Shown here piece after piece: positions 12,053-32,271 of a stretch of DNA of 64,000 nt (its first letter is position 1; the number at the start of each line of letters is the position of its first letter). The notes below the pieces were generated by a model, which had not been told where the DNA came from, made no database searches, and saw only the letters and a list, made by a program, of their open reading frames with translations. Position numbers and translations under genes: made by a program. Location of the stretch: NCBI GenBank assembly GCA_964599375.1, contig CAZREW010000015.1:10028-74027 (forward strand), read 5' to 3'. The DNA is from an uncultured bacterium (GTDB taxonomy: Bacteria; Krumholzibacteriota; Krumholzibacteriia; Krumholzibacteriales; Krumholzibacteriaceae).

Positions 12053-13587
12053 CAGAAATCCCAGACGAATGAGAGGTGACCGAATCCCTCGTCCATGTCA
12101 TCGCCGCCGCCCGAGGCGGAGGCGTATCCCGCCGCCGCCTCGATGAACGACCCGTGCCCGAGATCGACATTCAGAGCGGCGCAGAAGGTCCGCTCGTTTT
12201 TGACTTCGCCGCTCGGGAACGGAGGATCTGGATCTTCTCCCCAGTCCCATTGCCGCATGTCGCTTCCCTCACCTCTGCGTACCCACGTCCCCTCGACCGA
12301 GAGCAGCGCCCTCGGATGCAGAGGCGTGGAGACCCTCAGCGACCATCTGTCGGCGTCGGGGCCGAGCATGTCCCCGATGATCCTGCCGGCCTTCTTCCCG
12401 CCGTCCCCGGTGACGTAGGCTGTCAGGATGCTGTCCTTGTGGGAGTATGTGTAGATACCGATCCTCGTGTACGAAGCCCGCAATCCGACATCGTGCCCCC
12501 AGGGTGTCACGAGCGCGTCGGCGCCGACCGTCCAGCCGAGCTTGTCCGGCGCCGGCGGATCACTCTCGTACTGGACGTCGTCCATCAGCAGCTCGCCAGA
12601 GATGACGAGCCCCCTTGTGACCGGTACCTTGATGTCGGCCGACCAGAGGATGTTGTCGTCCTCTTTCTCGCTGTACTGGTTGGCGTAGAAAGCGCCGAAG
12701 GGGACGAGGTATGCCCAGTCGAGATCCCTGCCTGTATACAGCACTGTCTCGCTTATCCCCGCGTATATCCTCGCCGGCAGCCTGATCTCGAGCCTGTGCC
12801 CGGCGAGCCTGCGCGGCGCGTACGGGTCGAGCATCGCCTGGAACATCCTCAGCGTGAACCTTCCCATCGATATGTCGAAGGCGATATGGTCGTGCGAACC
12901 GGAGGTCGACGACATGAGCAGGCCGCCTGGCCCCTGCGGGCCCCACTGGATGTAGTCCCTGCCGAGCTGCAGCCTCCACCTGCTCCCCGCGAACGCCACA
13001 TACCCGCGCTCGTATTCGAATGTCAGGCCGCGCCAGCTCCTTACCCTGTCGAGTTCCTCCTCCCTCTCCCTTTCCGGACCCGTCATCAGCACATAATCGG
13101 TCTCGAATGTGACTGCGCTCCCCATGCCGAGAAGGAATGTCGGGATAAGGAGCCCGTTCGCCTCTGCGTCGCCGTCCTCCTCGGCCCGCTTGACGAGCGA
13201 GCCGCCCGCTGCGAGGTCGATCGTGAAAAAACGCCTTCCCTCCCTCAAGGTCCAGAGCGGGCCGTCCTCCCTCTCTTCAGGTGAGTTTTCCATCCCCTGG
13301 AATTCCTCCCTGAGCCGCCCGAGGATGAACTCCTGGCGCGGCGTGAGAACCACGCACCCACCCTTCATCGACTGCATTATGCGATCGACGTACGCCTCGA
13401 CTTCCGATCTCGAGTAAGGGGACGCGGGATCGAGGGCGACCAGCCCGAGTGTCTCGAACGTCCTGAGCGCGGGATATATCCAGCTTCGCGGTGGTATCGT
13501 CTCGTCCGAGCAGAATGACGCCGAAGGCGCCAGCAGCAGGGCGGCCGCGACGAATATTGCTGCGGGGATCGATCTGCGGGGCGTCAT
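12052..13587 (-). CDS. Capsule assembly Wzi-family outer-membrane protein
   Basis: Signal peptide (MTPRRSIPAAIFVAAALLL), N-terminal helical segment (WIYPALRTFETLG), GRDYIQWG, LAGHRLE, GPDAD motifs, alternating beta strands, terminal Phe. Start at the ATGA overlap, 13587. Confidence 0.7.
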   Translation of the reverse strand: MTPRRSIPAAIFVAAALLLAPSASFCSDETIPPRSWIYPALRTFETLGLVALDPASPYSRSEVEAYVDRIMQSMKGGCVVLTPRQEFILGRLREEFQGMENSPEEREDGPLWTLREGRRFFTIDLAAGGSLVKRAEEDGDAEANGLLIPTFLLGMGSAVTFETDYVLMTGPEREREEELDRVRSWRGLTFEYERGYVAFAGSRWRLQLGRDYIQWGPQGPGGLLMSSTSGSHDHIAFDISMGRFTLRMFQAMLDPYAPRRLAGHRLEIRLPARIYAGISETVLYTGRDLDWAYLVPFGAFYANQYSEKEDDNILWSADIKVPVTRGLVISGELLMDDVQYESDPPAPDKLGWTVGADALVTPWGHDVGLRASYTRIGIYTYSHKDSILTAYVTGDGGKKAGRIIGDMLGPDADRWSLRVSTPLHPRALLSVEGTWVRRGEGSDMRQWDWGEDPDPPFPSGEVKNERTFCAALNVDLGHGSFIEAAAGYASASGGGDDMDEGFGHLSFVWDF

Positions 13588-14741
13588 TCGGCGGGCTGTC
13601 CCTGTTCCCCGGCGGTCACTTGTGATGCGCCGGCTGCCAAGCGGTAGCACTCGCTCGCCTTTCTCTTGTCGTCCTGCTTCTCGTACGAGATGCCGAGACC
13701 GAAATAGACCTTGGAGTCGTCGGGATTGATCTCGGTCACCTTCCTGAAATATTCCTGGGCCTTCTGCGGCTGCTCCAGCCTGTTGAAGCACTCGCCCACG
13801 TAGTAGAGTATCGTCGCGTTGCCTGGGTTGAGCCTGGCGGCCTGCTCGAGATGCTTGAGAGACTTGCCGTAGACTCCCTTGCGGTAATATATGAAACCGA
13901 GGTAGAAGAGAGCGTTCACGTTGTCGCCCTCCAGCTTCAGGATCTTCCTGAACTCGGCCGCCGCGTCGTCGTAGAGATTCTCGTTTATAAGCGCGAGGCC
14001 GAGGTTGTAATGTCCCTCGACCGAAGAAGGATCTATCTCCAGCCCGATCCTGAACTCCTTGATCGCCTGTTCCTTGTCGCCTTCCTCTCCATACAGCGCG
14101 CCGAGGTTGAAGTGCGCCTCGGCGTTGCGGGGGTTGTGCTGCACCGCCTTGCGGAACTGCTGAAGTGCGGCGCTGCGACGGCCCTCGAGATCAAGGATGT
14201 AGCCGAGGTTGGTATACGATTTCGAATGGGTCGGATCGGTGGCTATGGCCTGCCTGTACATCCTCTCGGCCTCGCCGTACCTGCGGCTTTTCGTATATGC
14301 CACTCCGAGCCGGTAATAGCATTCCGGATTGTCGGGCTCCCTCTCGATCGCCCTCATGTGGAACCCGATCGCCTCGTCGAACCGTCCCTGCAGCTCGAGG
14401 AGCCTGCCCATCCTGTAGAGGGGGAGAGCGTCGCCATCGCTCATCGCGTCGATCCGCCTGTAACCCTCGAGTGCCAGCTCGTACTTTCCGATCCTTTCGA
14501 ACATATTGCATGCCTCCAGGATCTCCTCTTCGTCGGCGTCCGTGCTTACTATAACGTCGCGAAGGCAGGCCTCTGCCCTCGGGCTGTTTCTCTTGCGCAG
14601 ATAGAGTTCCGCGAGCTCGAGGACTTCCTCGACATCAGCCTCGCCGAGGGAGGATTTCTTTCTCAGGCGGGCGATCTCCCTGCTCTCTTCCCGCACCTCA
14701 CCCCTGGTGAACTCGAGAAGCTTCTCCCATCGCAGGCCCAT
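13584..14741 (-). CDS. Tetratricopeptide-repeat protein
   Basis: About 9 tandem 34-aa TPR units (e.g. YYRLGVAY, AHFNLGALY, GHYNLGLAL). No signal peptide. Confidence 0.9.
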   Translation of the reverse strand: MGLRWEKLLEFTRGEVREESREIARLRKKSSLGEADVEEVLELAELYLRKRNSPRAEACLRDVIVSTDADEEEILEACNMFERIGKYELALEGYRRIDAMSDGDALPLYRMGRLLELQGRFDEAIGFHMRAIEREPDNPECYYRLGVAYTKSRRYGEAERMYRQAIATDPTHSKSYTNLGYILDLEGRRSAALQQFRKAVQHNPRNAEAHFNLGALYGEEGDKEQAIKEFRIGLEIDPSSVEGHYNLGLALINENLYDDAAAEFRKILKLEGDNVNALFYLGFIYYRKGVYGKSLKHLEQAARLNPGNATILYYVGECFNRLEQPQKAQEYFRKVTEINPDDSKVYFGLGISYEKQDDKRKASECYRLAAGASQVTAGEQGQPAE

Positions 14742-15338: not shown

Positions 15339-15692
15339 TTACCCGCCGAGAAGTTCCCTGATCTTTTCCTTGAGGGGAGTGAGGTCCACGGACTTCACTA
15401 TATAGGCCTCGGCGGCCCAGGTCTTAAAGTTGTCCTTGAAGTCCGAATAGGCCGAATTGATTATCACCGGAAGATCCTTGCGGCGCTCGACTGTCATTAT
15501 CAGCGCGTCAATCCCGCTCTCGTCGCCGAGCTTCATGTCGAGGATCATCAGGTCCGGCGATTCCTTCTCGACGGACTCCAGCGCTTCAGCCACAGTCCCA
15601 GCCGATACCGTCTCATACCCCTCGCGACGCAACTCCTCGCTGTAGAGCTTCCTTACATTTATCTCGTCGTCTACTATAAGGATCTTTGCCAT
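15339..15692 (-). CDS. Single-domain response regulator (CheY-like receiver)
   Basis: KILIVDDE, PDLMILD (phospho-Asp), INSAY and VKS (conserved Lys); 117 aa with no output domain. Confidence 0.92.
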   Translation of the reverse strand: MAKILIVDDEINVRKLYSEELRREGYETVSAGTVAEALESVEKESPDLMILDMKLGDESGIDALIMTVERRKDLPVIINSAYSDFKDNFKTWAAEAYIVKSVDLTPLKEKIRELLGG

Positions 15693-15795: not shown

Positions 15796-16953
15796 TCAGC
15801 CCGCATGGACCTTGATGTCGAGTATTACCTTTATAGGCACCTCGCTGCGGATCTCCTCCTCTGAAAGTTCGATCGGGACCGTGACCATCTTCGAGGGGCG
15901 TTCCTTGTTCTTCTCGGCCGAAACGGGCCCCTCGTCAGCGGCCACCTCCGGCTTTTCCTCCGGCAGATTGACGAGCGGATCGTTTATAAATCCTTCTTCT
16001 TTCTTCCCATGCGCCTCTACTACCTCCTGAGCCACAGCGACGCTGGATTTTACCTCCGCTTCCTGTCCCGCAGGTTCCCGGCCGTTGTCTCCGAGCTCGA
16101 CCATGTGCCCGTACTCCTCGTACCCTTCCCGAGCCATGCCGAGATCCTCGGCAGATTCTTTCTCACCCTCGGTCAGCACGTGATCGACAAACTCAGAGAC
16201 AGACTCGTGCTCCTCTTCTCTCTCCTCTGCGTAACCTGAAGTCTCGCTCTCGCCTGCCTCTGAGTCAATGCCCTTTGCCGCGCCCTGCGCTACTACCTCT
16301 GCGTCGACCAGTCCTTCGTCCTTGCCGCTTTTCTTACCCTCTTCCTTTCCGGCCTTGATGTCCTTGAGCTCACACCTGAGCTGCTTGAAGACCAGCTTGG
16401 CTATACCCTCGAATGTCTCGTACACCCCTCTGCCGTCGGTGGCCACGGCCTCGAACGAGGGGACTTTCCATTCGGAGTTAAGCCCCGCGTCGAGCTTCTT
16501 CCTGTCCATGCATCCCGGCACGTCCCTCTTGTTGTACTGCATCACCCAAGGGGTCCCGGAAAGTGACATCCCGATCTCATTGAGGTTCTCCTCGAGGTTA
16601 CTGAGGCTCTCGATATCGTCCTCCAGCCTGTCCGGGGAGGAATCAGCCACGAACACAAGGGCATCCACACCCTTGAGCACCAGCTTTCTGGTCGCGTTGT
16701 AATAGACCTGTCCGGGGACCGTATAAAGAAGGAACCTTACCTTGAGGCCGCCGAGTTCGCCGACCTCGATCGGAAGGAAGTCAAAAAAGAGCGTCCTGTC
16801 CGTACGCGTCTTCATCGAAACCATCTTGCCCTTGTTCTCGCGCGGGAGCTTGGAATACATGTACTCGAGGTTCGTAGTCTTACCGCTGAGCCCCGGGCCA
16901 TAATATACGATCTTAATGTTAACTTCTCCGCCTGCGTAGTTATAGACAGCCAT
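15796..16953 (-). CDS. mglA: MglA-family small Ras-like GTPase with ~190-aa acidic C-terminal extension
   Basis: KIVYYGPGLSGKTTNL, RTLFFDFLP, LYTVPGQVYYNATRKLVLKGVD, FVADS and QYNKRD motifs. Start at MAVYNY (16953) behind an AAGGAG RBS. Confidence 0.9.
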   Translation of the reverse strand: MAVYNYAGGEVNIKIVYYGPGLSGKTTNLEYMYSKLPRENKGKMVSMKTRTDRTLFFDFLPIEVGELGGLKVRFLLYTVPGQVYYNATRKLVLKGVDALVFVADSSPDRLEDDIESLSNLEENLNEIGMSLSGTPWVMQYNKRDVPGCMDRKKLDAGLNSEWKVPSFEAVATDGRGVYETFEGIAKLVFKQLRCELKDIKAGKEEGKKSGKDEGLVDAEVVAQGAAKGIDSEAGESETSGYAEEREEEHESVSEFVDHVLTEGEKESAEDLGMAREGYEEYGHMVELGDNGREPAGQEAEVKSSVAVAQEVVEAHGKKEEGFINDPLVNLPEEKPEVAADEGPVSAEKNKERPSKMVTVPIELSEEEIRSEVPIKVILDIKVHAG

Positions 16954-17732: not shown

Positions 17733-18209
17733 TCAGGCCTTCTGGAGCCTGGACCCGCACCAGGGGCAGAAATTGAACCTTTCGCTCACAGTGTGCCCGC
17801 AACCGCAGGGAACCTCCGGACCCTCGTCCTTTTCCCCTTCGGAAGAGACTGAGCTGAAGCAGTTTTTCTTGAGCTGGTCGTAGAGTTCCTGGGCCTTAGG
17901 CAGGACGAACTCGTAATCCCTTCCAGAGCAGACTATCACGCGGGGATGGAGGTCGCCTCCCTCGATGCGTACGTCATCGACAGTCGCGAGGTCGATCGAT
18001 ACACCTCTCATCCCGAAGGACGAATCGAGATGGGACACCTGGAAGTTAAGCCGGCAGTCGGTCATCTCGAGAACGCCCCGGGCTGCGATCAGGCGGCTGA
18101 CGTAGTATATCGCTTTTTGCATGAAAAGAGTCTTTTCCGTGCATACCTGCAACGTTTTACCTCCATCGATAGTATGTGCCTGATCTTTGCCAGAACCGTG
18201 CCATTTCAA
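17733..18209 (-). CDS. Hypothetical protein: PH/GRAM-like domain plus C-terminal zinc ribbon
   Basis: GVLEMTDCRLNF...SIDLATVDDV resembles a PH/GRAM fold; C-terminal CGCG...FNFCPWCGSRL zinc ribbon. Start uncertain. Confidence 0.6.
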   Translation of the reverse strand: MKWHGSGKDQAHTIDGGKTLQVCTEKTLFMQKAIYYVSRLIAARGVLEMTDCRLNFQVSHLDSSFGMRGVSIDLATVDDVRIEGGDLHPRVIVCSGRDYEFVLPKAQELYDQLKKNCFSSVSSEGEKDEGPEVPCGCGHTVSERFNFCPWCGSRLQKA

Positions 18210-21553: not shown

Positions 21554-21994
21554 ATGGAGATCACCGAGAAGATCCTCAGGGAAGTCTTTCACCGCCTGGT
21601 CAACATGGAGCCCGAAGACGAAGTATTCGAGAGGCTCAACGGCGTGATAAACGGGATGATGGATAAGTTCCAGGACACATTCGATCTTGACACGGTGCAG
21701 AGACAGAACACGTTCCGGGCGATCATATGCTCGATGTTCGTGCACGGGTGGGGTATCGGGATGCATCCGTTCAACAATCCCGACAGGAACCTCGACGAGA
21801 GGCCGATCGAGGTCCGCGTCAGCAAGGATATCCTCATCCCGATGGAGAACATCAAGGCCCTTCGCTACGTCAAGAAGGACCAGGATGGCCGGGTCAAGAA
21901 GGTCCTCTTCGAACCTGACCAGAACGAGCGCATCCGGGGACAGATAGACAATCTGCTCGACAAGATAGCCGGCGAGAAGTGGGGCGAGAAATGA
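21554..21994 (+). CDS. Hypothetical soluble protein
   Basis: 146-aa ORF with a GGGAG RBS and normal codon pattern, filling the gap before the converging gene. No recognisable motif. Confidence 0.7.
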   Translation: MEITEKILREVFHRLVNMEPEDEVFERLNGVINGMMDKFQDTFDLDTVQRQNTFRAIICSMFVHGWGIGMHPFNNPDRNLDERPIEVRVSKDILIPMENIKALRYVKKDQDGRVKKVLFEPDQNERIRGQIDNLLDKIAGEKWGEK

Positions 21995-21996
21995 CC

Positions 21997-22815
21997 TTAT
22001 GAGTCATTGAGCTTCTCGAGCTCGATGAGCCTGCCGCCGTTCCTGAACTCGACCAGATCCATCAGTTCCTTAATCAGGTAGATCCCCCTGCCCGAGCCCT
22101 TGTAGATGTTCTCCTGCTCGGTGGGATCGGAGATCTCCTCCGGGATGAACCCCTCCCCCTCGTCCTCGATCTGGATGCGTATGCGGCTGCTGCTGATATA
22201 TACGCGGACCCTCACCTTGAGCTTCTCGTCAGACCTGTTGCCATGCACTATGGCGTTACTGAGCGCCTCGTCCACGACCATCGGCAGGTTGACTCTGCTC
22301 TCCTCGGGAGGGAACCCGAACTCGGCGGAAAGAAACGAGATGAGGCGGTTGACCCCGAGTATCCGGGACAGCTTGCTCGGAACGACGAAATCAAGCCTCA
22401 CGTGTCCTTCCCTTATCAGCTCGTTGTTTCTCGGGAACGGGATGCCGCGGTCGGCGGCGTGGCGAAGGACGCCCTGCGCGTCCGCCCTGCTGAAAGGCGG
22501 TGTGATTATACCGTCGATCCCCATCGATATGTACGTCAGGTAGGCCCTCTCGTCGCACTCGCCGGTCACGATATACAGCGGCGATTCGATCATCGACAGC
22601 CTGAGCTGCCTCGTCTTGCCAGGATCGAGCTTTCCGGAGGGTAGAAAGAGGAGCAGGTTGGGACAGCAGTCTCCCGCCGACTGCAGCGCCTTGAGGAACC
22701 TCGGGAATGTCTTGTACGCCTTTACCTCGACATCCTCCGGGAGGCGTGCCTCGGCAAAGAACTGGTCATGCAGCGCAGGCTGCAGATTGAGTATATACAA
22801 TGAAAGTCTGTTCAC
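21997..22815 (-). CDS. Pseudo-receiver fused to an RsbW-like anti-sigma/Ser kinase (HATPase_c_2) domain
   Basis: C-terminal VDEALSNAIVHGN, IEDEGEGF and GSGRGIYLIKELMD boxes. N-terminal alpha/beta receiver-like pattern without the acidic residues. Confidence 0.8.
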   Translation of the reverse strand: MNRLSLYILNLQPALHDQFFAEARLPEDVEVKAYKTFPRFLKALQSAGDCCPNLLLFLPSGKLDPGKTRQLRLSMIESPLYIVTGECDERAYLTYISMGIDGIITPPFSRADAQGVLRHAADRGIPFPRNNELIREGHVRLDFVVPSKLSRILGVNRLISFLSAEFGFPPEESRVNLPMVVDEALSNAIVHGNRSDEKLKVRVRVYISSSRIRIQIEDEGEGFIPEEISDPTEQENIYKGSGRGIYLIKELMDLVEFRNGGRLIELEKLNDS

Positions 22816-22831: not shown

Positions 22832-23431
22832 TCAGAATACCTGCTGCCCGTCTGCGAGTATCTCGTTAAGCGCTGTACGGAAATACTCGCTCGATTCGGT
22901 CACTTCGGAACCGATCTTCTCCTTGTAAGCCTCCCAGGCCTTCTTTATCTCGGGGCCCAGCAAGGTCATCAGGTCACCGTTGGCGAGTCCGCGGTCGCGC
23001 TTCTCCTGGTTATACACCAGGATGTCGCTCACGAAGACACGGGCGAGCCTTTTCGCCCTCTCGCGTTTCTTCCTGATCTCGGGCGTCTCGACTACCGTCT
23101 CCACGACAGCCGGCTTCGCCTCGAAAGCCGCGTCGTTCCCGGAGATCTCAGCCTCTTCCTCTAAGATCGCGGATTCAGGCTGCGTCATCACAGCGGCCGC
23201 CCTGTGCTGCTCGGGAGCTCCCCATCCCCCGCTCACCTGAGCCTCGGCCAGCGGAACGCCCGTGGCGTACTCGTTGGTCGTGATCTCGATCCCGGCATCC
23301 AGAGCCGCCGGAGGCGGAGTGAGTCTCCATATGAACCGGCACTTAGGGCATCTGACCCTGATCCCCGCGGAGGGGACCTTCTCATCCCCGAGCATGTATT
23401 TCGTCTGGCATCCGTCACAGGTGACGATCAT
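22832..23431 (-). CDS. MJ0042-type zinc-ribbon protein with a C-terminal RomX-like domain
   Basis: N-terminal MIVTCDGCQTKY...KVP..GIRVRCPKC; Ala/Glu/Pro linker; C-terminal AKRLARVFVSDILVYNQEK...YFRTALNEIL helical domain. GGAGG RBS before 23431. Confidence 0.75.
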   Translation of the reverse strand: MIVTCDGCQTKYMLGDEKVPSAGIRVRCPKCRFIWRLTPPPAALDAGIEITTNEYATGVPLAEAQVSGGWGAPEQHRAAAVMTQPESAILEEEAEISGNDAAFEAKPAVVETVVETPEIRKKRERAKRLARVFVSDILVYNQEKRDRGLANGDLMTLLGPEIKKAWEAYKEKIGSEVTESSEYFRTALNEILADGQQVF

Positions 23432-23479: not shown

Positions 23480-24028
23480 TCAGAGTCCGAGTTCCTCTGA
23501 TATCGACCTCATCGCATCGAGCGATATCTCGAGAAATTCGTGCAGATCAAGACCCAGCTCGCTACAACTTGCAATCGCCTCACGGTTTGCGCCCGCGGCA
23601 AACCTCTTTTCCTTGAAACGCTTCCCCACGAATTCAGCGTCAGTTTCCGCCAGTTTCTTCGAAGGGTGCATCAGGGCTGAAGCAACAATCAAGCCAGTAA
23701 CGGGGTCGGCGGCGTATATCGCCCTGTCCATGTCGGTGTCCAGCCCCGCCCTGTCGCAGTGCGCGAGTATTGCGTGACGGACCTCCTCCGGGACGTCCAC
23801 TCCCTCGATCAGGTCCATCGTCACGCATCCATGCCTTTCCGGTTCCTCGAAGGTGCTCTCGTAGTCGAGGTCGTGAAGGAGGCCGGCCATGCCCCAGACG
23901 TCAGGGTCGCCGCCGTAACGCTTAGCCAAAGCTCGCATTATGGCTTCTACTGCAAGGACATGCTTGACGAGGTTCTTCTTCCTGAGGTGGGTGTTGACCA
24001 GCCCCAGTGCTTCTTCGCGCGTTATCAA
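23480..24028 (-). CDS. HD/HDIG-family metal-dependent phosphohydrolase
   Basis: KHVLAVE, GLLHDLD, H..AILAH, AADPVTGLI, KRFKEKRFAAG motifs. Confidence 0.88.
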   Translation of the reverse strand: MITREEALGLVNTHLRKKNLVKHVLAVEAIMRALAKRYGGDPDVWGMAGLLHDLDYESTFEEPERHGCVTMDLIEGVDVPEEVRHAILAHCDRAGLDTDMDRAIYAADPVTGLIVASALMHPSKKLAETDAEFVGKRFKEKRFAAGANREAIASCSELGLDLHEFLEISLDAMRSISEELGL

Positions 24029-24058: not shown

Positions 24059-26158
24059 TCAGCCGATATCTGCCAGTCCCATCCTGCCCCTATAATACTG
24101 CCGGAAATAATCGGCAACAACCCTGTTTTCCGGCTTGTCCAGCCCCGGGTCGCCGGCGAGAAGATCGCCGCTCTCCCTCCATGACCGTTGGACAAGGTCA
24201 CTGTCGCTGAGGGGATTTATCAGCCTGAACGCCGGATATCCCGACTGTCTCGTGCCCCAGACCTCCCCAGGACCGCGCATCTCGAGATCGATCTCCGCCA
24301 CCCGGAACCCGTCCGTAGTGGAGGCGAACATCTCAAGGCGCCGCGCCGATGCCCCTGACGCGTCCTCGTCGACCAGGAGGTAGCATACGCCCCCGCTGCC
24401 ACCTCTGCCGATCCTCCCGCGGAGCTGGTGGAGTTGAGCGAGCCCGAACCGCTCCGGATGATTTATAAGCAGGAAGGAGGCATTAGGAATATCCACCCCT
24501 ACCTCTATCACGGTCGTCGTGACCAAGCCGAGGATCTCCCCGGCGCGGAACATCGATATCGCGCGCATCTTCTCTTCGAAACTCATCCTGCCGTGCAGAA
24601 GGCCTATCGGGAGACCGGAGAACTCTTCCGCCGAGAGGCGCTCGAACTCCTCGGTCGCGGCCTTCAGCTCGAGCCCCTCGCTCTCCTCGACCAGGGGGTA
24701 AAGGATGAAGGCCTGCCGCCCCTCCCTCATACCGTCCCGGACCGTCGCATAGGCAGATTCCGCTTCGCCGGCCAGCACGATCTCGGTCCTCACGTCCCTG
24801 CTACCGAAGGGCATCTCGTCTATCACTGAGAGGTCGAGGTCTCCGTATACGGTCTGCGCGAGGCTGCGGGGTATCGGCGTCGCTGTCATCACGAGAAAAT
24901 GCGGAAGCAGGTCCCCGGAGCCGAGCGTCGCCCTCTGCCGCACGCCGAAACGGTGCTGCTCGTCTATGACCGCGAGGCCAAGCTGCCTGAACGATATCGA
25001 TTCCTGTATAAGCGCGTGCGTGCCTACGACCAGGTCGATCTCTCCCGAGGCGAGCCTCCTGTGGACATCCCTCTTCTGGGCCTGTCTCATCGAACCGAGG
25101 AGCAGGGCGGTCGTGACCCCGAGCCCCTCGAGATACTCCTCCATCCTCATCGCGTGCTGCTGGGCGAGGATCTCGGTCGGTGCCATCATCGCGGCCTGAT
25201 GCCCCGCGCCGACAGCGAGGAGCATGGACGCGAGCCCGACGACGGTCTTGCCCGAGCCGACGTCTCCCTGCAGGAGCCTCGAGAGGCCTTTCTCGCTCTC
25301 TACGTCAGCCCTTATCTCCCCCAGCACCCTCTTCTGGGCCCCTGTCAGGGAGAAGGGAAGGTTCTCCAGGAAGCGGCGCGCCAGTCTGTGGGGAGGAGCT
25401 ATCACGGGACGCTTCCTCCCCTCGCGTACGAGTATCGACTTCTCCCTGATAAGGAGGTGGAGGAAGAATACCTCCTCGAACTTCAGCCTCCTGACGGCCG
25501 TCTCGAGAGCGGGCTCGTCATCGGGATAGTGGATCTGGAAAAGAGCTTGCTCCCTACCCGGAAAGCCCATGCCGCGGAGCAGCCCGCCGGGCAGGTTCTC
25601 CGGGATCATGCCCCGGGCGCGGTCGAGTGCCGCCTTTACTATCCTGCGCATCATCCTCTGCGAGATCCCAGCGGTCAGCGGATAGACCGGCACTATCCTT
25701 CCGGCGTTGAGGAGCTGCTCGTCCTCCCCGCCGCCGGTCATCTCCCACTCCGGTCCGACCATCTGCTTGCGGTCCCTGTACAGCTTGACGCGGCCGCTTG
25801 CGATGACTCTCGATCCCTTGCGGAAATACTTGTCCAGGTAGGACTGGTTGAAGAAGACGAGCTGGAGCGCCCCGGTGCCGTCATCGATGGCGACTGTAAG
25901 CATGCTCCTGCGGGAGCCCAGCCTTCGAGAATGCGCGGTCAGCACCTCACCGCTCACCGTCACCGTCTCCCCGACGGGGGCCGACCCGATCGACACGAGG
26001 CTGGTGCGGTCGTAGTAAGCTCTCGGGTAATGCCTGATAAGGTCGTCGACCGTCTCTATCCCGAGCCGTGAAAGGAGCTTCTGGCGCGCCGGGCCTACGC
26101 CCCTGACGAACTGGCTGCTCGTCCCGAGTATCTTTTCTTCTGCCTTTTCACTGACCAT
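24059..26158 (-). CDS. recG: ATP-dependent DNA helicase RecG
   Basis: Wedge OB fold; LLQGDVGSGKT, DEQHRFGV, MTATPIPR, ERFGLAQLHQLRGRIGRG and DLEMRGPGE motifs. Confidence 0.98.
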   Translation of the reverse strand: MVSEKAEEKILGTSSQFVRGVGPARQKLLSRLGIETVDDLIRHYPRAYYDRTSLVSIGSAPVGETVTVSGEVLTAHSRRLGSRRSMLTVAIDDGTGALQLVFFNQSYLDKYFRKGSRVIASGRVKLYRDRKQMVGPEWEMTGGGEDEQLLNAGRIVPVYPLTAGISQRMMRRIVKAALDRARGMIPENLPGGLLRGMGFPGREQALFQIHYPDDEPALETAVRRLKFEEVFFLHLLIREKSILVREGRKRPVIAPPHRLARRFLENLPFSLTGAQKRVLGEIRADVESEKGLSRLLQGDVGSGKTVVGLASMLLAVGAGHQAAMMAPTEILAQQHAMRMEEYLEGLGVTTALLLGSMRQAQKRDVHRRLASGEIDLVVGTHALIQESISFRQLGLAVIDEQHRFGVRQRATLGSGDLLPHFLVMTATPIPRSLAQTVYGDLDLSVIDEMPFGSRDVRTEIVLAGEAESAYATVRDGMREGRQAFILYPLVEESEGLELKAATEEFERLSAEEFSGLPIGLLHGRMSFEEKMRAISMFRAGEILGLVTTTVIEVGVDIPNASFLLINHPERFGLAQLHQLRGRIGRGGSGGVCYLLVDEDASGASARRLEMFASTTDGFRVAEIDLEMRGPGEVWGTRQSGYPAFRLINPLSDSDLVQRSWRESGDLLAGDPGLDKPENRVVADYFRQYYRGRMGLADIG

Positions 26159-26621: not shown

Positions 26622-28142
26622 TCACCTTAGCAGGGCACGGTATCGTCTCAGCAGAGCGTCCCTGCCGCCGTCACCCGAGGACTTTTCCCACGGCAGTGGA
26701 TCATCGAGCCCCCTCTCGGCGTGAATGAAATCGGGGTCGACGCCCTCGTCCCTGAGCGCTCTCTTCCACGATGTGCCGCCCGCGGCGTACCTCACTGCGG
26801 CCCTTCCGACCTCCTCGCCGCCGAGCGCTATCCTGGCCTGGTTCATCGATGATCTCTGTCCCTTCGCGGAGATCCTGACCCCAGCGGACCTGCACACCGC
26901 CGCCATCGAATCGACCGAAGCTTTTATCTCCGTGCGGCCTGGCATCGCCATGAACTGAAGCGGGGTCCGCGGCTTGGGCACTAGTACGTTGAGGTTGACC
27001 TCTACGCGGGCGCCTCCCGCCGCCTTTGAGAATGCTGAGAGAAACCGCTCCGAATCCACGAACGTCCCTGCATCCTCGCCGGGGAGCCCCGCGAGCATGT
27101 AGAGGGTGAACCGAGACACTCCCGCTCCGCGCAGCAGTCGGGCCGCGCCGAGATATTCCTGGTCGGGAGACCTCTTGCCGAGCCTGACCCTCATGCTCTC
27201 GCTCCCCGACTCGGGAGCGAGGCTGACACTCCTTATGCCGGCCCTGCCTATCGCCTCCGCCCTTTCAGCGTCGATATCCCCGGCCCGCAGCGAGCTGAGC
27301 CCGACCCTTCCCCCCCTCGCCTCGACCGCTCTCATCAAGCCGGTGAAATCGGGATGCGCAGCCGCCGCCGTGCTGACAAGGCCGACGTTCAGTGGAGCCG
27401 AGCCCGCGGCCCCGCGGGCCTCATCGAGGATCGACTCGAACCTCTCCAGAGGCATCGTCCTGAACGGCCTGTAGATCGAGGTCGCCATGCAGAACGCGCA
27501 AGCTCCGGGACACCCCCTCGAGACCTCGACCAGAAACATGTCCGGGAACGCCGTGCCGTGCGCGATTATGGCGGAATGTTGAAAGAGCTCGGGAGCCGCC
27601 GGCCCCGCGGGGGCAGCCGTCTCGTGACGACCGGGCAGTATGATGCCTCCGGCGCCGGAAAGCCTCGCGGCGATCGTGTCCATGTCCTGCCACTCGCCGG
27701 CGACTGCATCTATTATCCTCGGCATCACCGGCTCTCCCTCGCCGGCGGCAAGCACATCCGCCAGGGGGAAGAAAGGCACAGGATTGGACGAGACTACGGG
27801 GCCACCCGCGATCACCAGGGGGCCGCCGGCCCTTCTTTCCCTCAGCGGGTCGATACCGAGTGAGACAAGTATCCTCACCAGATTGAGCAGGTCCTCCTCA
27901 TATGAGACGGTGAAGAAGACAGCGGCGGGCGCCTCGCGGCCGGGAGGATCGCCGAGAAAACACCTGCCGATCCTGAACCTGCCGCTTCTCGAAAGGGATG
28001 AATAGATGAAATGGTATCCGAGATTCGACATCCCGGTGGCGTATCTGTTCGGGTAGGCCACTATCACCAGAGGCGCCCCTGACGGGGGCACGGGATAGGT
28101 CTCAAGAACTGTCTCGCCGGCGTATCTCGGGGGATCGGTCAC
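26622..28142 (-). CDS. Radical SAM protein with N-terminal B12-binding-like domain, uncharacterised family
   Basis: YPNRYATGMSNLG, IAGGP, GEGE, EVSRGCPGACAFC (CxxxCxxC), SLAPESGS, LYMLAGLPGE and VPKPRTPLQ motifs. Confidence 0.88.
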   Translation of the reverse strand: MTDPPRYAGETVLETYPVPPSGAPLVIVAYPNRYATGMSNLGYHFIYSSLSRSGRFRIGRCFLGDPPGREAPAAVFFTVSYEEDLLNLVRILVSLGIDPLRERRAGGPLVIAGGPVVSSNPVPFFPLADVLAAGEGEPVMPRIIDAVAGEWQDMDTIAARLSGAGGIILPGRHETAAPAGPAAPELFQHSAIIAHGTAFPDMFLVEVSRGCPGACAFCMATSIYRPFRTMPLERFESILDEARGAAGSAPLNVGLVSTAAAAHPDFTGLMRAVEARGGRVGLSSLRAGDIDAERAEAIGRAGIRSVSLAPESGSESMRVRLGKRSPDQEYLGAARLLRGAGVSRFTLYMLAGLPGEDAGTFVDSERFLSAFSKAAGGARVEVNLNVLVPKPRTPLQFMAMPGRTEIKASVDSMAAVCRSAGVRISAKGQRSSMNQARIALGGEEVGRAAVRYAAGGTSWKRALRDEGVDPDFIHAERGLDDPLPWEKSSGDGGRDALLRRYRALLR

Positions 28143-28160
28143 TGGAACGCTCCGGTATCT

Positions 28161-29798
28161 TTACGGCTCGAGATCGAGCGGCCCGCGTCCGACAAGATTG
28201 CGGGCAAGGACGTTCTCAGGCTCGAACTCGAGTATCTTGTCGAGCAGTTTCCCCGCCTCCTCCTCATGGCCCTTCTTGCGCAGTGTAAGAGCCAGCGAGA
28301 TCACCGCTTCGCTGTACTCCGAGTTGACGTCGAGGCTCTTTCGGTAGAGGTCCTCCGCTTCATCCAGATCGCCCCGGTAGTACTTGATGTCACCCATTAT
28401 CTTGTAGATGTCGGCGAAATCCTCGCCGTTCTTGCCAAGGATCTCCTCGGCCCCAGCGTAATCCTCCCTTCGGACGAGCAGCACGGCGAGCTTCTCCCGC
28501 GCGCGGAGGAACACGGGGTTGATCTCGAGAGAACGCCTGAAGAGCTCTTCCGCCTCGACGGGACGGTCCATCCTCATGTAGACCTCGCCGAGGAAATAGA
28601 GGACGTCCGCGCTCTCGCCGCCGGCGTCGAGCACCTCCTTGAGGACGTGCATCGCCTCCTCCAGGTTCCCCTCCTTCAGATAGACGAGCGCGAGGTTTAT
28701 GCTTGCCGAGCCTGGACGCTCCATCTCCGGTATCCCCCCTGAAAGGTATTCCACCGCATCCTTCTTCTCGCCCAGGGCGTACAGCAGAAGCCCGTAATAG
28801 TAGCGGGCCTTAGGGTAGCCCGGGGAGAGCTCGAGGGCCCGTTCAAGTACTGAGCGCGCCTTTTTGAGCTCCCCTGTATAGAAATACGTCGATCCCAGGT
28901 AACAGTGGAGGTCAGCGTAGTCCGGCTTCTCGAGGACGGCCCGCTCGAAGTGGGGCAGCGCTTCCCTGTACAGCTTCATATCGAGATATGAGACTCCAAG
29001 GTAGAAGCGGGCTTCCGTGTAGTGCTCGTTTATCTTCAGGGCCTCGAGCAGCTGGACGCGGGCATTCTCGTGGTCGCCGCCGCGGAGCATCGACAGGCCC
29101 AGCTTGAAACGTACGTCGGCATAATCGGGATGTACCACGGCGGCCTCGCTGAAGAGCCCGGTGGCCCTTTCGTAATGGCCGGTGTTGTACGACTCCACTC
29201 CCTCCCGCATCAGGGAATCGAAATCCGTATCGGTATACATGATCTCCCTGAGTCTGGCCAGCGGCGGGATCTCGGTCGCCCTTCCGGCTATGTGGTCGCT
29301 GAGAAACTTGCTTATCGGACCGGGATTGTCCGCTCCAAGCTCCAATGCCCGCTTGAACACCGCGTCGGCGTCATCCTTCATTCCCTTCTCGTACAGGACG
29401 ATCCCGAGAAAGCACACTGCCTCGAAGTAAGCCTTGTTCAGGCTGATCGCCCTGCCCAACATCCCGAGTGACTCGTCGAGTTCTCCGCGCTCATGGTGGA
29501 TGACACCCATCCTGTAGTAGAGGTCGGGGTACGTGGGGTTCTCCTTTACCGCGACAGAGAAATGATCGAACGCGGCGTCGAGCTCCCCCGCGTGAAAACG
29601 CGCCGTTCCCAGGTGCACGTGCGACTCGGCGGCATAGAACATCCCGAGGGCATAGGTCGGGTCGCCCGGCCCGAGGGACGCGATCGCCTTCTCGAGCGCC
29701 TCGACTGCCTCCGCATACCGGCCCTCATTGAAGTACCTGATGCCGAGCTCGTACTCGGGGTTCTTCTCCACTCCGAATATTCTTCCCCAGAACGACAA
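28161..29798 (-). CDS. Long tetratricopeptide-repeat protein
   Basis: About 13 TPR units with recurring P(T/D)Y(P/A)D(L/V) caps; directly downstream of ftsZ. Confidence 0.9.
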   Translation of the reverse strand: MSFWGRIFGVEKNPEYELGIRYFNEGRYAEAVEALEKAIASLGPGDPTYALGMFYAAESHVHLGTARFHAGELDAAFDHFSVAVKENPTYPDLYYRMGVIHHERGELDESLGMLGRAISLNKAYFEAVCFLGIVLYEKGMKDDADAVFKRALELGADNPGPISKFLSDHIAGRATEIPPLARLREIMYTDTDFDSLMREGVESYNTGHYERATGLFSEAAVVHPDYADVRFKLGLSMLRGGDHENARVQLLEALKINEHYTEARFYLGVSYLDMKLYREALPHFERAVLEKPDYADLHCYLGSTYFYTGELKKARSVLERALELSPGYPKARYYYGLLLYALGEKKDAVEYLSGGIPEMERPGSASINLALVYLKEGNLEEAMHVLKEVLDAGGESADVLYFLGEVYMRMDRPVEAEELFRRSLEINPVFLRAREKLAVLLVRREDYAGAEEILGKNGEDFADIYKIMGDIKYYRGDLDEAEDLYRKSLDVNSEYSEAVISLALTLRKKGHEEEAGKLLDKILEFEPENVLARNLVGRGPLDLEP

Positions 29799-29822
29799 TA
29801 CTGTCCTCCAGCTCTTTCCCTC

Positions 29823-31028
29823 TCAGTCGAGCTGCTTACGCAGAAAGGTCGGTATGTCGAGGTTCAGCTCGTGAGCCACCGTAGTCACGCCGGCCGCCAC
29901 AAAGTCTACCTCCGGCCTGTCGGCCGCCTCGGGCTCTCTCTGCCTCGAGGCGAACACCGCCTGTTCTACCGTGACCGGTTCCATCACGGGGGCCGCGGTC
30001 GCGGCTACCGGCTGCCTCGCGGGCTCCGATACGCGCCTTCTCGCCTCGTAATCGGGGTATATCTCGCGCTCGGAATGCTCGAAACCAGTCGCTATCACGG
30101 TCACATGCATCGCGTCGGTATTACCGCTGCTGACGACGGCTCCGAAGATGACGTTCGCGTCCTCACCGGCCTCTTCACTGATTATCGCGGTGGCCTGTGA
30201 GACTTCGTGCAACGTCATCTTCTCATCGCCCGTGATATTGACCAGGACACCCTTGGCGCCCCTGATCGAGATGTCGTCGAGAAGCGGGCTGCTCAGCGCC
30301 ATGCGCGCGGCCTCGACCGCCCTGTTCTCGCCCTCGGCGACGCCGGTACCCATAAGCGCGTCGCCCATTCCGCTCATGATAGAGCGGACGTCGGCGAAGT
30401 CAAGGTTTATGAGCCCGGGGATCATTATCAGGTCGGATATCCCTTTTGTCGCGTGATGAAGGATGCCGTCGGCCTTGGAGAACGCGGCGGACAGCGGCGT
30501 ATCGGCGCCGACGATCGATAGAAGCCTGTCGTTCTGGATCACGATCAGGGTGTCGACTTCCCTTTTCAGCTCCTCGATACCGGCGAGCGCCTGGTTCTCC
30601 CTGCGCTTTCCCTCGAAGGAGAAGGGCCTGGTTATGATGCCTACTGTAAGCGCGCCGAGCTCACGGGCCGTCCTCGCGACCGTCGGGCTGGCGCCAGTGC
30701 CGGTGCCTCCGCCCATGCCGGCCGTTACGAATACCATGTCGGCTCCATCGATCGTCTCGCGTATCAGGTCGATGTCTTCCTCGATCGCCTTTCTTCCGAC
30801 ATCGGGATTTCCCCCCGAGCCGAGTCCCTTAGTAAGCCTTCCACCTATCTGGATCTTCTTGTGAGCCTGTGACAGCTCGAGCACCTGCGCGTCGGTGTTC
30901 ACCGCGACAAACTCGACCCCCTGCAGTCCGGCTGCGATCATACGGTTGACGGCATTGCCTCCGGCGCCGCCGACGCCGATGACCTTCAGAGCGGCCAGCT
31001 CGCCGAAGTCATCGAATTCAAATCTCAT
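29823..31028 (-). CDS. ftsZ: Cell division protein FtsZ
   Basis: [29 protein letters not shown] motifs; C-terminal [10 protein letters not shown] peptide. Start at MRFEF (31028). Confidence 0.99.
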
Positions 31029-31047
31029 GTCCTGCCCCCTTTTCAAG

Positions 31048-32271
31048 TTAGAACATACTCGCAAGTCTTTTAAGGTTACCCATCATCTTTCCGAAGCGCC
31101 CACGGCCCCTGATCTCTTGCTCCTCGCGTTCGAGCCTGTCCTTCTCATAGAGGAGCAGTCCGACCGCCGCGCTCCAGCTTTCGTTCGAGACGATCTCCGA
31201 GAGACCGCCGAGCCCCCAGGGACGTCCGGTCCTGACAGGCCTGCCGAAGACCTGGCCGGCGACCCCCGCAAGCCCTTCTATCTTCGATCCGCCCCCGGTC
31301 AGGACTACCGTGCTCCCGGCCGCCTGAAAGTGCGGGGCGTTCGATACCGCCGACTTGATCATGCTGAAGATCTCCTCGCATCTCGGCTCGATGATCGCGG
31401 CGATTATCTGTCTTCTTATCTCTCCCTCGCCGTTCCCGGTCCCCGGCATGGTGACGATCTCTTCATCCGACGCCATAGACGCCAGCGCCAGCCCCCAGCG
31501 CAACTTGACCTCATCGGCCGTGCCTTTAGGGATCCTCAACCCGACGGCGAGGTCGTTGGTCACATTCTCGCCCCCGGCGCCGAGGACACCGCTAGATCGG
31601 ATACTTCCCTTGCCGTAAAGGGCGAATGAGCTGGAACAGGCTCCCATGTCAATCAACAGGCATCCCGCGTCGATCTCCTCTTCGAGAAGCACAGCGTGGG
31701 CCGCCGCGAGGGGGTTGAAGACCACGTTAACGACCTCGAACCCCGCCTTTTCAATGACCTTGACGGCGTTCTCGACGTGCACGGCCAGCACCGAGACGAG
31801 ATGCACCTCGGTGCCGAGCCTCGAGGCTGTCATGCCGACCGGGTCGCTGATACCCCTGTGGGCGTCCACGACATAGTCCTGCGGAACCGAATGAAGGATC
31901 TCCATCTCGGAAGGAAGTGTTATGTCGCACGCTATCGTGTTGACGTGCTCGACGTCTGCGGCGGTTATTTCCCTGCGCTCTTTCGGGATCGAGATCATCC
32001 CCCTGCTGTTGAAGCTCCTTATGTGAGGAACGCTTATGCCGACGCAGACACAGTCGATCTCGACTCCAGCCATCCGCGCGGCATGACCGGCCGTCTCGCG
32101 GACACACTCGGCCGCTTCCTCCATATCGACGACAGCGCCTTTCCTTATCCCGGATGACGGCCTCGATGAGGCGCCGATGATCCGCAGGGTGCCGTCTGAC
32201 ACTATTTCGCCTACGAGAACGGCCGTTCTCTCCGATCCGAGATCGATGCTTACTATGAATTCCGGTAGCAT
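31048..32271 (-). CDS. ftsA: Cell division protein FtsA
   Basis: Actin-like fold, [12 protein letters not shown]2 1C insert, [15 protein letters not shown]-terminal amphipathic helix; lies between ftsQ and ftsZ. Confidence 0.95.

What the first reader, a model, noticed from the sequence alone, without database searches (positions are those of the whole stretch)
22832..23431. Zinc ribbon fused to a RomX-like (MglA-GEF) domain
The last ~80 aa (22832-23075: AKRLARVFVSDILVYNQEK..G....L...L..EI....E.YK.......YF..ALNEIL) reproduce, as I recall it, the pattern of M. xanthus RomX (A.RLAR.I.SDI.LYN..K..G...LE.G...Y...FF..AIN). RomX is a small stand-alone protein that acts with RomR as the MglA GEF. 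Here it is fused via an acidic/Pro linker to an MJ0042-type zinc ribbon of the kind found at the N-terminus of gliding protein GltJ/AgmX. I do not know this architecture from characterised proteins, and an MglA gene lies about 6 kb away. The RomX match is from memory and needs confirming.
Basis: partly seen in the sequence, partly recalled or inferred. Interest (0 to 1): 0.8.

Follow-up and report, generated by a model that had tools for sequence, protein, structure and literature searches.

The report
Zinc ribbon fused to RomX-like domain
A 199-residue protein of an uncultured Krumholzibacteriota bacterium joins a GltJ/ZitP-type zinc ribbon, through a disordered acidic linker, to a true homologue of RomX (the Myxococcus protein that binds the polarity GTPase MglA), and this uncharacterised fusion family always lies near an mglA gene in several candidate phyla.

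Summary
The ORF at 22832-23431 (-) encodes three parts:
- an MJ0042-type zinc ribbon (Pfam 4e-13);
- a 79-residue acidic, Ala/Pro-rich disordered linker;
- a C-terminal helical bundle homologous to M. xanthus RomX (PDB 8ZNA). Single sequence gives E=5.9e-9, a family profile gives 2.6e-20, and 8ZNA is the top Foldseek hit (TM 0.73).

The RomX residues needed for MglA-GTP binding (R11, R14, D19) are kept as R128, R131 and D136. The RomR-binding determinants are lost: the L-R motif is now A-D, and the tail ending in W87 is missing.

The architecture is not unique.
- At least 522 species-level genomes encode it (Krumholzibacteriota, Latescibacterota, Eisenbacteria and relatives).
- A RomX preprint already lists zinc-finger proteins among Foldseek hits with the RomX fold.
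- No member has been characterised.

Support for a link to MglA:
- In 41 of 41 loci with enough flank, a gene matching the window's MglA lies 0.7-6.1 kb downstream on the same strand.
- Natural MglA-RomX-like fusion proteins exist.

Most likely this is an MglA-GTP-binding adaptor whose zinc ribbon engages a second partner, as in the GltJ switch. It is not a RomR-dependent GEF, and RomX's own GEF role is now disputed. I rate it a new variant of a known kind, of moderate interest.

The parts
22832..23431 (-). Complete CDS (199 aa plus TGA stop) of the ZnR-linker-RomX-like protein.
   Evidence: The start is set by homologue alignment, by the HMM register and by the SD GGAGGA at 23446-23441.
23321..23431 (-). 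MJ0042-type zinc ribbon, residues 1-37 (C5, C8, C28, C31).
   Evidence: PF13717 at 4e-13; TIGR02098 at 3e-10; 7zok (GltJ ZnR) at 3.8e-6; 2nb9 (ZitP) at 1.8e-3, and Foldseek rank 2 with TM 0.69. All four Cys are invariant in 17 homologues.
23084..23320 (-). Acidic Ala/Pro-rich disordered linker, residues 38-116. It contains short conserved motifs: E49 (in [FI]E[IV]) and W70 (in G-x-W).
   Evidence: Composition. pLDDT <50 for residues 44-112. Invariant E49 and W70 within Krumholzibacteriota. Linker length varies from about 70 to 290 aa across phyla.
22835..23083 (-). RomX-like helical bundle, residues 117-199. Helix 1 carries R128, R131 and D136. The C-terminus is ...ALNEILADGQQVF.
   Evidence: The invariant residues are listed.
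21997..22815 (-). Downstream gene, 16 nt away and probably co-transcribed. It has a probable pseudo-receiver N-terminal domain and an RsbW/SpoIIAB-type HATPase_c_2 domain.
   Evidence: PF13581 at 7.4e-21. RsbW 6m36 at 1.2e-7 and SenB 9qih at 2.1e-7. For the N-terminal profile, 6 of the 7 best (non-significant, E 0.6-1.6) PDB hits are receiver domains in collinear register. Present in 44 of 67 loci.
23480..24028 (-). Upstream HD-domain protein (182 aa), in the same strand run.
   Evidence: PF01966 at 1.1e-9. Conserved upstream only in the Krumholzibacteriota-type loci.
24059..26158 (-). recG, the head of the same-strand gene run.
   Evidence: RecG_wedge, DEAD, Helicase_C and RecG_dom3_C. Found upstream of the ZnR-RomX-like gene in 66 of 80 loci.
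21554..21994 (+). Convergent 146-aa orphan protein. It is highly conserved and lies between the finding and mglA.
   Evidence: 48 invariant columns in 11 sequences. No Pfam, PDB or Foldseek match. Present in 51 of 67 loci.
15796..16953 (-). mglA: G domain (residues 1-195) plus a ~190-aa acidic low-complexity C-terminal extension.
   Evidence: 3t12 at 1e-68; M. xanthus MglA at about 1e-67. G21, R53, T78 and Q82 are kept. D108/E111/E115 correspond to M. xanthus E108/E111/E115.
13584..14741 (-). TPR protein conserved downstream of mglA; a candidate MglA effector.
   Evidence: TPR families. A TPR gene follows mglA in most loci with enough flank.

Best explanation
The gene encodes a soluble cytoplasmic adaptor of the MglA polarity GTPase module.

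Shown:
- The C-terminal helical bundle is a divergent RomX-family domain.
- It keeps the helix-1 residues that RomX needs to bind MglA-GTP.
- It has lost the residues and the tail that RomX uses to dock on the receiver domain of RomR.

Inferred:
- The domain binds the GTP form of the MglA encoded 5.9 kb downstream. It acts as a nucleotide-state-specific effector or stabiliser rather than as a RomR-dependent exchange factor.
- The N-terminal MJ0042-type zinc ribbon is a second protein-protein interaction module, tethered by a 70-290-residue disordered linker. In its two characterised relatives this kind of ribbon binds MglB (GltJ) or the polar hub PopZ (ZitP).
- The protein therefore links MglA-GTP to a second partner. 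That partner could be a GAP, a polar scaffold, or the co-transcribed pseudo-receiver/RsbW-like kinase.
- It may work as a GltJ-type switch, in which MglA-GTP binding frees the ribbon for its partner.
For: 1. Homology to RomX. Single sequence E=5.9e-9. Profile E=2.6e-20, with the next PDB hit at 0.35. Foldseek top hit 8zna, TM 0.73.

2. MglA-binding residues. RomX R11/R14 (the double alanine mutant loses MglA-GTP binding and exchange activity) and D19 (loses exchange activity) align to R128/R131/D136. These are invariant in 17 Krumholzibacteriota homologues. R14, S18 and D19 are at least 90% conserved across 149 cluster representatives holding RomX-like domains.

3. Gene neighbourhood. In the best 80 genome loci, 78 of 78 complete genes carry the zinc ribbon. 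All 41 of 41 loci with at least 8 kb downstream encode a protein matching the window's MglA on the same strand, 0.7-6.1 kb away. This holds although intervening genes (MFS-GT4-LpxL, the HD protein, the kinase, the orphan) come and go.

4. Rosetta-stone fusions. Three representatives (P0257, P0305, P0364) have an N-terminal MglA G domain (E=1e-48 to 1e-53 against the window's MglA), followed by 2-3 RomX-like domains.

5. The window's MglA keeps an acidic D108/E111/E115 patch matching the M. xanthus residues that an AlphaFold model places against RomX R11/R14.

6. Precedent. GltJ combines a zinc ribbon, a flexible linker and an MglA-GTP-binding element. MglA-GTP releases the ribbon, which then recruits MglB.
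Against: - No binding data exist, and no complex prediction could be run here.
- recG is conserved next to the gene almost as strictly (66 of 80 loci). Part of the mglA linkage may therefore be inherited synteny near the dcw cluster rather than functional coupling.
- The MglA acidic patch is not strictly conserved across loci; only E115 is near-constant.
- In some lineages the neighbouring GTPase appears to lack R53/T78/Q82. That alignment is weak.
- No MglB, RomR or PopZ homologue was seen in the annotated part of the window. The partner of the zinc ribbon is therefore unknown.
- Conservation of helix 1 could also serve folding, or a different ligand.
Confidence: 0.55

Rival explanations
1. 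It is a functional RomX orthologue. It would work as the small subunit of a RomR/RomX-type complex (GEF or polar recruiter), docking on a receiver domain. Candidates are the probable pseudo-receiver of the downstream RsbW-like kinase, or the single-domain response regulator next to mglA (15339-15692). The zinc ribbon would be an add-on.
For: - RomX binds RomR's receiver domain.
- The RomX fold often co-occurs with receiver domains and zinc fingers in one protein. 12 of 149 representatives carry Response_reg, for example P0241 with ZnR, REC and 5 RomX-like domains.
- A gene with a probable pseudo-receiver follows at 16 nt.
- A canonical REC gene follows mglA in Krumholzibacteriota.
Against: - The RomR-binding determinants are not conserved. 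The RomX L-R motif (L76-R77 by my count of P0122; L75/R76 in the paper) is A193-D194 here, a charge reversal that is invariant in the family.
- The 10-residue tail ending in W87 is absent.
- The kinase gene is missing from 23 of 67 loci, including all Eisenbacteria-type loci, and REC117 is confined to Krumholzibacteriota. The mglA linkage is universal.
- The receiver assignment of the kinase N-terminus is not statistically significant.
- GEF activity of RomRX itself is disputed.
Confidence: 0.15
2. It is a regulator of the co-transcribed RsbW/SpoIIAB-like serine kinase or anti-sigma protein, in a partner-switching-type circuit. It would have no direct role with MglA. The RomX-like bundle would simply be a receiver-binding or kinase-binding helical module.
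For: - Tight operon arrangement with a 16-nt gap.
- Co-occurrence in 44 of 67 loci across Krumholzibacteriota, Latescibacterota and Fibrobacter-like MAGs.
- The HATPase_c_2 domain is clear.
Against: - The kinase gene is dispensable in a third of the loci, while the C-terminal motif ...ALNE[IM]LA[DE]G..[IV]F and helix 1 stay almost unchanged.
- Natural MglA-RomX-like fusions point to MglA as the general ligand of this domain.
Confidence: 0.12
3. It is a nucleic-acid-binding zinc-ribbon protein acting with RecG and the HD phosphohydrolase in DNA repair or nucleotide metabolism. The similarity to RomX would reflect only a common small helical fold.
For: - It lies directly downstream of recG in 66 of 80 loci.
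- Zinc ribbons in general can bind nucleic acids (stated in PMC11135422).
Against: - The RomX match is sequence homology, not only fold (E=2.6e-20).
- The two characterised MJ0042-type ribbons closest to it bind proteins.
- The linker is acidic.
- The HD gene is absent outside Krumholzibacteriota.
Confidence: 0.05

Closest known systems
RomX of Myxococcus xanthus (87 aa; PDB 8ZNA)
   Same: - Homologous helical bundle: about 29% identity over about 75 residues, profile E=2.6e-20, TM 0.73.
- The helix-1 motif A-x-R-L-A-R-x-[ILV]-x-S-D-I-x-x-Y-N is kept, including R11, R14 and D19, which are required for MglA-GTP binding or exchange activity.
- An mglA gene is present in the same genome.
   Different: - RomX is a stand-alone protein. 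Here the domain is the C-terminus of a 199-aa protein with a zinc ribbon and a long disordered linker.
- The RomX helix-3 L-R motif and the C-terminal tail ending in W87, which dock on RomR-REC, are replaced by an invariant A-D-G-x-x-x-F end.
- The ZnR-fused domains form their own tight subgroup. They are 43-71% identical to the window's domain, against about 29% for RomX.
GltJ (AgmX) N-terminal ZnR-Linker-GYF switch of M. xanthus (PDB 7ZOK; PMC11135422)
   Same: - Same MJ0042-type ribbon at the extreme N-terminus (Cys at 5, 8, 28, 31 in both), followed by a flexible linker and an MglA-GTP-binding element on the same chain.
- It suggests the same switch logic.
   Different: - GltJ is a 671-aa membrane protein of the gliding machine with a GYF domain. 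The NCBIfam GltJ model scores only 30 bits against a cut-off of 450.
- In GltJ, MglA-GTP binds a linker peptide, not a RomX-like domain.
- No MglB was found in this window.
ZitP of Caulobacter crescentus (zinc finger, PDB 2NB9)
   Same: It is the best structural match for the ribbon (Foldseek rank 2, TM 0.69). The ribbon is an N-terminal protein-binding module of a polarity factor.
   Different: - ZitP is a membrane protein that binds PopZ.
- It has no RomX-like domain and no link to MglA.
ZnR-REC-RomX-like response regulators and 'Zn finger/thioredoxin putative domain' proteins listed as RomX-fold Foldseek hits (Chakraborty and Gayathri, bioRxiv 10.1101/2024.02.20.581209, Fig. 1 and Table S2)
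   Same: - Same combination of an MJ0042-type zinc finger with a RomX-like bundle.
- The window's protein belongs to the class listed there as zinc-finger proteins with the RomX fold.
   Different: - The preprint describes the zinc finger as associated with receiver-containing hits. It gives no sequence-level, genomic-context or taxonomic analysis.
- The window's family has no receiver domain in the same chain.

Membership tests
RomX family (M. xanthus RomX type) | Sequence-detectable homology to the RomX three-helix bundle. | tested here: met
   phmmer E=5.9e-9. Profile E=2.6e-20 with the next hit at 0.35. Foldseek top hit 8zna, probability 1.0, TM 0.73.
RomX family (M. xanthus RomX type) | Helix-1 residues required for MglA-GTP binding or exchange activity (R11, R14, D19). 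| tested here: met
   They align to R128, R131 and D136. These are invariant in 17 homologues. They read RRD in most of the loci compared; MRD occurs in 4 loci, all with a divergent GTPase.
RomX family (M. xanthus RomX type) | Helix-3 L-R motif and the C-terminal tail with W87 that bind the RomR receiver domain. | tested here: not met
   The L-R motif is A193-D194 here, and the protein ends 6 residues later at F199. The tail with W87 is absent.
RomX family (M. xanthus RomX type) | Small stand-alone protein (about 87-90 aa). | tested here: not met
   The protein is 199 aa with a zinc ribbon and a linker. 78 of 78 complete orthologues are fusions.
RomX family (M. xanthus RomX type) | Physical binding to MglA-GTP, and co-occurrence with a RomR orthologue. 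| not testable with these tools
   No multimer prediction or whole-genome search was available. No RomR-like gene lies in the annotated part of the window.
MJ0042-type zinc ribbon (TIGR02098 / PF13717) | A pair of CxxC knuckles, with an HMM score above the curated cut-off. | tested here: met
   C5-x2-C8 ... C28-x2-C31. PF13717 scores 49.5 bits against 30.3; TIGR02098 scores 39.6 against 20.9.
GltJ (NF033761, adventurous gliding motility protein) | Full-length match including the GYF, transmembrane and periplasmic regions. | tested here: not met
   30 bits against a cut-off of 450. Only residues 1-31 match.
MglA (for the neighbouring gene 15796-16953) | MglA-type G domain with an intrinsic Arg finger (R53), T78 in place of the Ras-family Asp, and Q82. 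| tested here: met
   E=1e-68 and about 1e-67 to solved MglA structures. The residue pattern GRTQ is kept.

The most novel reading that the evidence does not exclude
The ZnR-linker-RomX-like proteins are self-contained MglA-GTP sensors.
- They would merge the two Myxococcus solutions (RomX-type GTP-state recognition and GltJ-type zinc-ribbon recruitment of a GAP or scaffold) in one chain.
- They would be the general RomR-independent way of positioning or timing MglA in the Fibrobacterota-Chlorobiota-Bacteroidota-related candidate phyla.
- Together with the natural MglA-RomX-like fusions, this would show that the ancestral job of the RomX domain is effector-like binding of MglA-GTP, not nucleotide exchange.
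Probability: 0.25. Interest if true: 0.7.

Novelty: new variant of a known kind. Interest (0 to 1): 0.55.

Why it matters
Whether RomX is an exchange factor or an effector of MglA is currently disputed, and all the data come from one organism.

A large, sequence-coherent family offers an independent test of what the RomX domain does. In this family the RomX domain has shed its RomR interface, gained a GltJ-like zinc ribbon, and stays beside mglA across several phyla.

The family, together with chains in which MglA itself is fused to RomX-like domains, also shows that MglA polarity modules with RomX-type partners exist far outside Myxococcota, in uncultured lineages where nothing is known about cell polarity or motility.

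These proteins are currently annotated only as 'zinc-ribbon domain-containing protein'. This analysis gives them a better annotation.

Tried and rejected
1. Pfam and NCBIfam have no model for the C-terminal domain. Homology had to come from PDB sequence and profile searches.

3. I tested whether the N-terminus of the downstream kinase is a receiver domain.
- hhalign against the REC117 family gave E=0.31.
- A profile against the PDB gave only sub-significant hits, E 0.6-1.6.
- The hits are mostly receivers in the right register, so I call it 'probable pseudo-receiver', not shown.

4. I tested whether the conserved 146-aa orphan is MglB/Roadblock-like.
- It has no Pfam hit and no PDB profile hit.
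- The AlphaFold2 model has only pLDDT 68, and Foldseek found nothing.
- The idea is rejected for lack of evidence.

5. The listing of cluster members returned no taxonomy for the multi-repeat, REC-fused and other representatives looked up.

6. A literature search for 'SenB' (PDB 9qih, similar to the downstream kinase) found nothing useful.

7. I looked for a second RomX-like domain or MJ0042 ribbon in the window and found none.

8. I looked for co-variation between RomX-like R128 and MglA E115. All 4 loci with M at position 128 have S at position 115. They have similar divergent GTPases and may be one lineage, so this is only a hint.

Full report
**1. What is at the coordinates**

On the minus strand an ORF runs from ATG 23431 to the stop at 22832-22834 and encodes 199 aa. 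The mechanical ORF list starts it at GTG 23455. Three things place the real start at 23431:
- All 16 aligned homologues begin MI[VI][TA]C.
- The zinc-ribbon models match from residue 1.
- A GGAGGA motif lies 9 nt upstream of ATG 23431.

The gene sits in a same-strand run with gaps of 30, 48 and 16 nt, so an operon is likely. The run is:
- recG (24059-26158);
- an HD protein (23480-24028);
- this gene;
- a 272-aa protein (21997-22815).

**2. The three parts**

*Zinc ribbon (residues 1-37).* This is an MJ0042-type ribbon.
- PF13717 matches at E=4e-13 and TIGR02098 at 3e-10.
- The solved GltJ ribbon 7zok matches at 3.8e-6 and ZitP 2nb9 at 1.8e-3.

*Linker (residues 38-116).*
- It is acidic (14 D/E against 2 K/R, pI 4.05) and rich in Ala and Pro.
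- AlphaFold2 predicts disorder, with pLDDT <50 for residues 44-112.

*Helical bundle (residues 117-199).*
- AlphaFold2 gives a confident helical bundle, pLDDT about 90.
- Residues 122-193 align without gaps to residues 5-76 of M. xanthus RomX (PDB 8ZNA) at E=5.9e-9.
- A profile of 15 such C-terminal domains finds RomX at E=2.6e-20. The next PDB sequence is at E=0.35.
- The model's best PDB match by Foldseek is 8ZNA: E=8e-4, probability 1.00, TM 0.73, rmsd 2.0 A over 80 columns.

**3. Which RomX features are kept and which are lost**

The RomX structure preprint (10.1101/2024.02.20.581209) reports two interfaces.
- Helix 1 contacts MglA-GTP. R11A/R14A abolishes binding and exchange activity, and D19A abolishes exchange activity.
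- Helix 3 and the C-terminal tail dock on the RomR receiver domain, through an L-R motif and W87.

In the window's protein:
- R11, R14 and D19 correspond to R128, R131 and D136. They are invariant in 17 homologues.
- Across 149 cluster representatives holding RomX-like domains, the A-R...S-D...Y core is at least 90% conserved.
- The L-R motif is A193-D194 here, a charge reversal that is invariant in the family. By my count of the 87-aa RomX sequence P0122 the motif is L76-R77; the paper numbers it 75/76.
- The protein ends 6 residues later at F199, so the tail carrying W87 is missing.

The domain therefore looks competent for MglA but not for RomR.

**4. The MglA**

The ORF 15796-16953 (-) matches solved MglA structures at E=1e-68 (T. 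thermophilus) and about 1e-67 (M. xanthus).
- It keeps G21, R53, T78 and Q82.
- It has D108/E111/E115 where M. xanthus MglA has E108/E111/E115. The preprint's model places that patch against RomX R11/R14.
- It carries a ~190-aa acidic low-complexity C-terminal extension.
- Its start is 5.9 kb from the finding's stop, on the same strand.

**5. How common the architecture is**

*Close homologues.* A search with the full protein found 382 relatives. The best 120 are full-length proteins of 187-217 aa. They are named only 'zinc-ribbon domain-containing protein' or 'predicted Zn finger-like uncharacterized protein', from Candidatus Krumholzibacteria and related bins.

*RomX-like domains in general.* A RomX-like profile searched against 1.84 billion cluster representatives found 3685 clusters at E<=1e-3 and 1277 at E<=1e-10. 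The best 149 break down as follows:
- 36 have ZnR, linker and a single C-terminal RomX-like domain (165-395 aa), plus several truncated copies.
- 10 have a ZnR-like start plus 2-5 tandem RomX-like domains.
- Response_reg is found in 12 of the 149, for example P0241 with ZnR, REC and 5 RomX-like domains.
- Roughly 60-70 are stand-alone RomX proteins that match the profile through the W tail.
- Three have an N-terminal MglA G domain (E=1e-48 to 1e-53 against the window's MglA) followed by 2-3 RomX-like domains.

*The ZnR-fused subgroup.* These domains are a tight subgroup ending ...ALNE[IM]LA[DE]G..[IV]F. They match the profile only to position 79, which means they lack the RomX tail.

*Genomes.* In one genome per species (GTDB), at least 522 stretches encode a relative. 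The best 80 are Krumholzibacteriota, Latescibacterota, Eisenbacteria and Fibrobacter-like or unclassified MAGs. All 78 complete genes among them start with the zinc ribbon. The linker varies from about 70 to 290 residues and is Pro/Ala-rich.

*Prior notice.* The preprint reports that 47 of 471 Foldseek hits with the RomX fold carried a zinc-finger domain. [quoted passage not shown] The co-occurrence has therefore been seen. I found no paper that analyses or characterises the family.

**6. Genomic context across relatives**

Across the 80 related loci the order is as follows, with optional genes in brackets:
- recG - (HD) - ZnR-RomX-like - (pseudo-receiver/HATPase_c_2 kinase), on one strand;
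- the 146-aa orphan, then (MFS - GT4 - LpxL), on the opposite strand;
- then mglA - (REC, small secreted protein) - TPR protein, on the first strand again.

Counts:
- All 41 loci with at least 8 kb downstream have a gene matching the window's MglA on the same strand, 0.7-6.1 kb from the stop of the ZnR-RomX-like gene.
- The kinase gene is present in 44 of 67 loci with enough flank.
- The orphan is present in 51 of 67.
- recG is upstream in 66 of 80.

The link to mglA survives gain and loss of the genes in between, which argues for functional coupling. recG is conserved almost as well, however. Inherited synteny beside the dcw cluster (ftsA and ftsZ lie at 29.8-32.3 kb) must account for part of the signal.

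**7. Mechanism**

*What is known about the relatives.*
- RomX binds only the GTP form of MglA.
- The 2026 Nat Commun study found no acceleration of GDP-to-GTP exchange by RomX or RomRX. It found slowed GTP release, as for the effector SgmX. The preprint still measures exchange activity.
- GltJ has a zinc ribbon that folds back on a linker. MglA-GTP displaces it, and the freed ribbon recruits MglB and raises GAP efficiency fourfold.
- ZitP's ribbon binds PopZ.

*Proposal.* I propose that the window's protein is an MglA-GTP-binding adaptor. Helix 1 of the RomX-like domain would bind MglA-GTP. The zinc ribbon, on a long flexible tether, would bind a second protein, possibly in a GltJ-like, MglA-gated manner.

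*Shown and inferred.* Homology, residue conservation, gene linkage and the existence of MglA-RomX-like fusions are shown. Binding, nucleotide specificity and the ribbon's partner are inferred.

**8. Rivals**

*(a) A true RomX working with a receiver protein.* The lost L-R/W87 interface and the patchy distribution of both candidate receiver genes argue against this.

*(b) A regulator of the co-transcribed RsbW-like kinase only.* The kinase gene is absent from a third of loci while the domain stays unchanged.

*(c) A nucleic-acid-binding partner of RecG.* This is unlikely given sequence-level homology to RomX and the protein-binding relatives of the ribbon.

**9. Verdict**

- The 'GEF' label is disputed.
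- The RomR interface is absent.
- The architecture belongs to a large, already-glimpsed but uncharacterised family.

I rate it a new variant of a known kind, with interest 0.55.

Noticed in passing
window 21554-21994 (+): A 146-aa orphan protein with extreme conservation: 48 invariant columns in 11 sequences, including QNTFRA..CSM..HGWG.GMHP and LFEPDQ. It lies between the ZnR-RomX-like operon and mglA in 51 of 67 loci. It has no Pfam, PDB-sequence or Foldseek match. The AlphaFold2 model has only pLDDT 68.
   Followed up: yes
window 15796-16953 (-): The MglA carries a ~190-residue acidic, low-complexity C-terminal extension after a canonical G domain. The MglA ORFs in related loci are similarly long, so the extension seems to be a clade feature.
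   Followed up: partly
proteins P0257, P0305, P0364: Natural fusions of an N-terminal MglA G domain (E=1e-48 to 1e-53 against the window's MglA) to a long coiled or disordered region and 2-3 RomX-like domains. Their taxonomic origin is unknown.
   Followed up: partly
proteins P0241-P0246, P0252, P0254, P0255, P0314: Proteins of 394-987 aa with a zinc-ribbon-like N-terminus and two to five tandem RomX-like domains. P0241 also has a receiver domain, and Response_reg is found in 12 of the 149 representatives overall. This is the architecture of the Desulfuromonas example in the RomX preprint, but multiplied.
   Followed up: partly
window 21997-22815 (-): A 272-aa protein with an RsbW/SpoIIAB-type HATPase_c_2 domain. 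Its N-terminal domain looks like a receiver that lacks the phospho-acceptor Asp (LLLFLP in place of the usual D). It resembles PDB 9qih 'SenB' over both halves.
   Followed up: partly
loci L044, L049, L050, L058, L061, L075, L080, L081 (GTPase gene downstream of the match): In Fibrobacter-like and some other MAGs the GTPase next to the ZnR-RomX-like gene is a divergent MglA relative (E=1e-9 to 1e-21). It appears to lack R53, T78 or Q82. In four loci RomX-like R128 is Met and the residue aligned to MglA E115 is Ser. The alignment is weak, and the loci have similar divergent GTPases and may be one lineage.
   Followed up: partly
window 15339-15692 (-) and 13584-14741 (-): A canonical single-domain response regulator (117 aa) follows mglA in Krumholzibacteriota. 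A 385-aa TPR protein follows mglA in most loci with enough flank. This recalls the TPR effector SgmX of MglA.
   Followed up: no
window 17733-18209 (-): A 158-aa protein conserved upstream of mglA in Krumholzibacteriota, with a C-terminal short zinc ribbon (CGCG...CPWCG) and an unassigned N-terminal domain.
   Followed up: no
loci L010 and L012: Two nearly identical copies of the whole recG-to-TPR region lie on two contigs of the same MAG (CAVVEY01). This suggests strain heterogeneity or a duplicated bin rather than paralogy.
   Followed up: no
window 26622-32271 (-): Upstream of recG lie a radical SAM protein, a 545-aa TPR protein, and then ftsZ and ftsA. The whole block is conserved next to the finding in most loci, so the MglA module sits at the edge of the division and cell-wall cluster.
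   Followed up: partly
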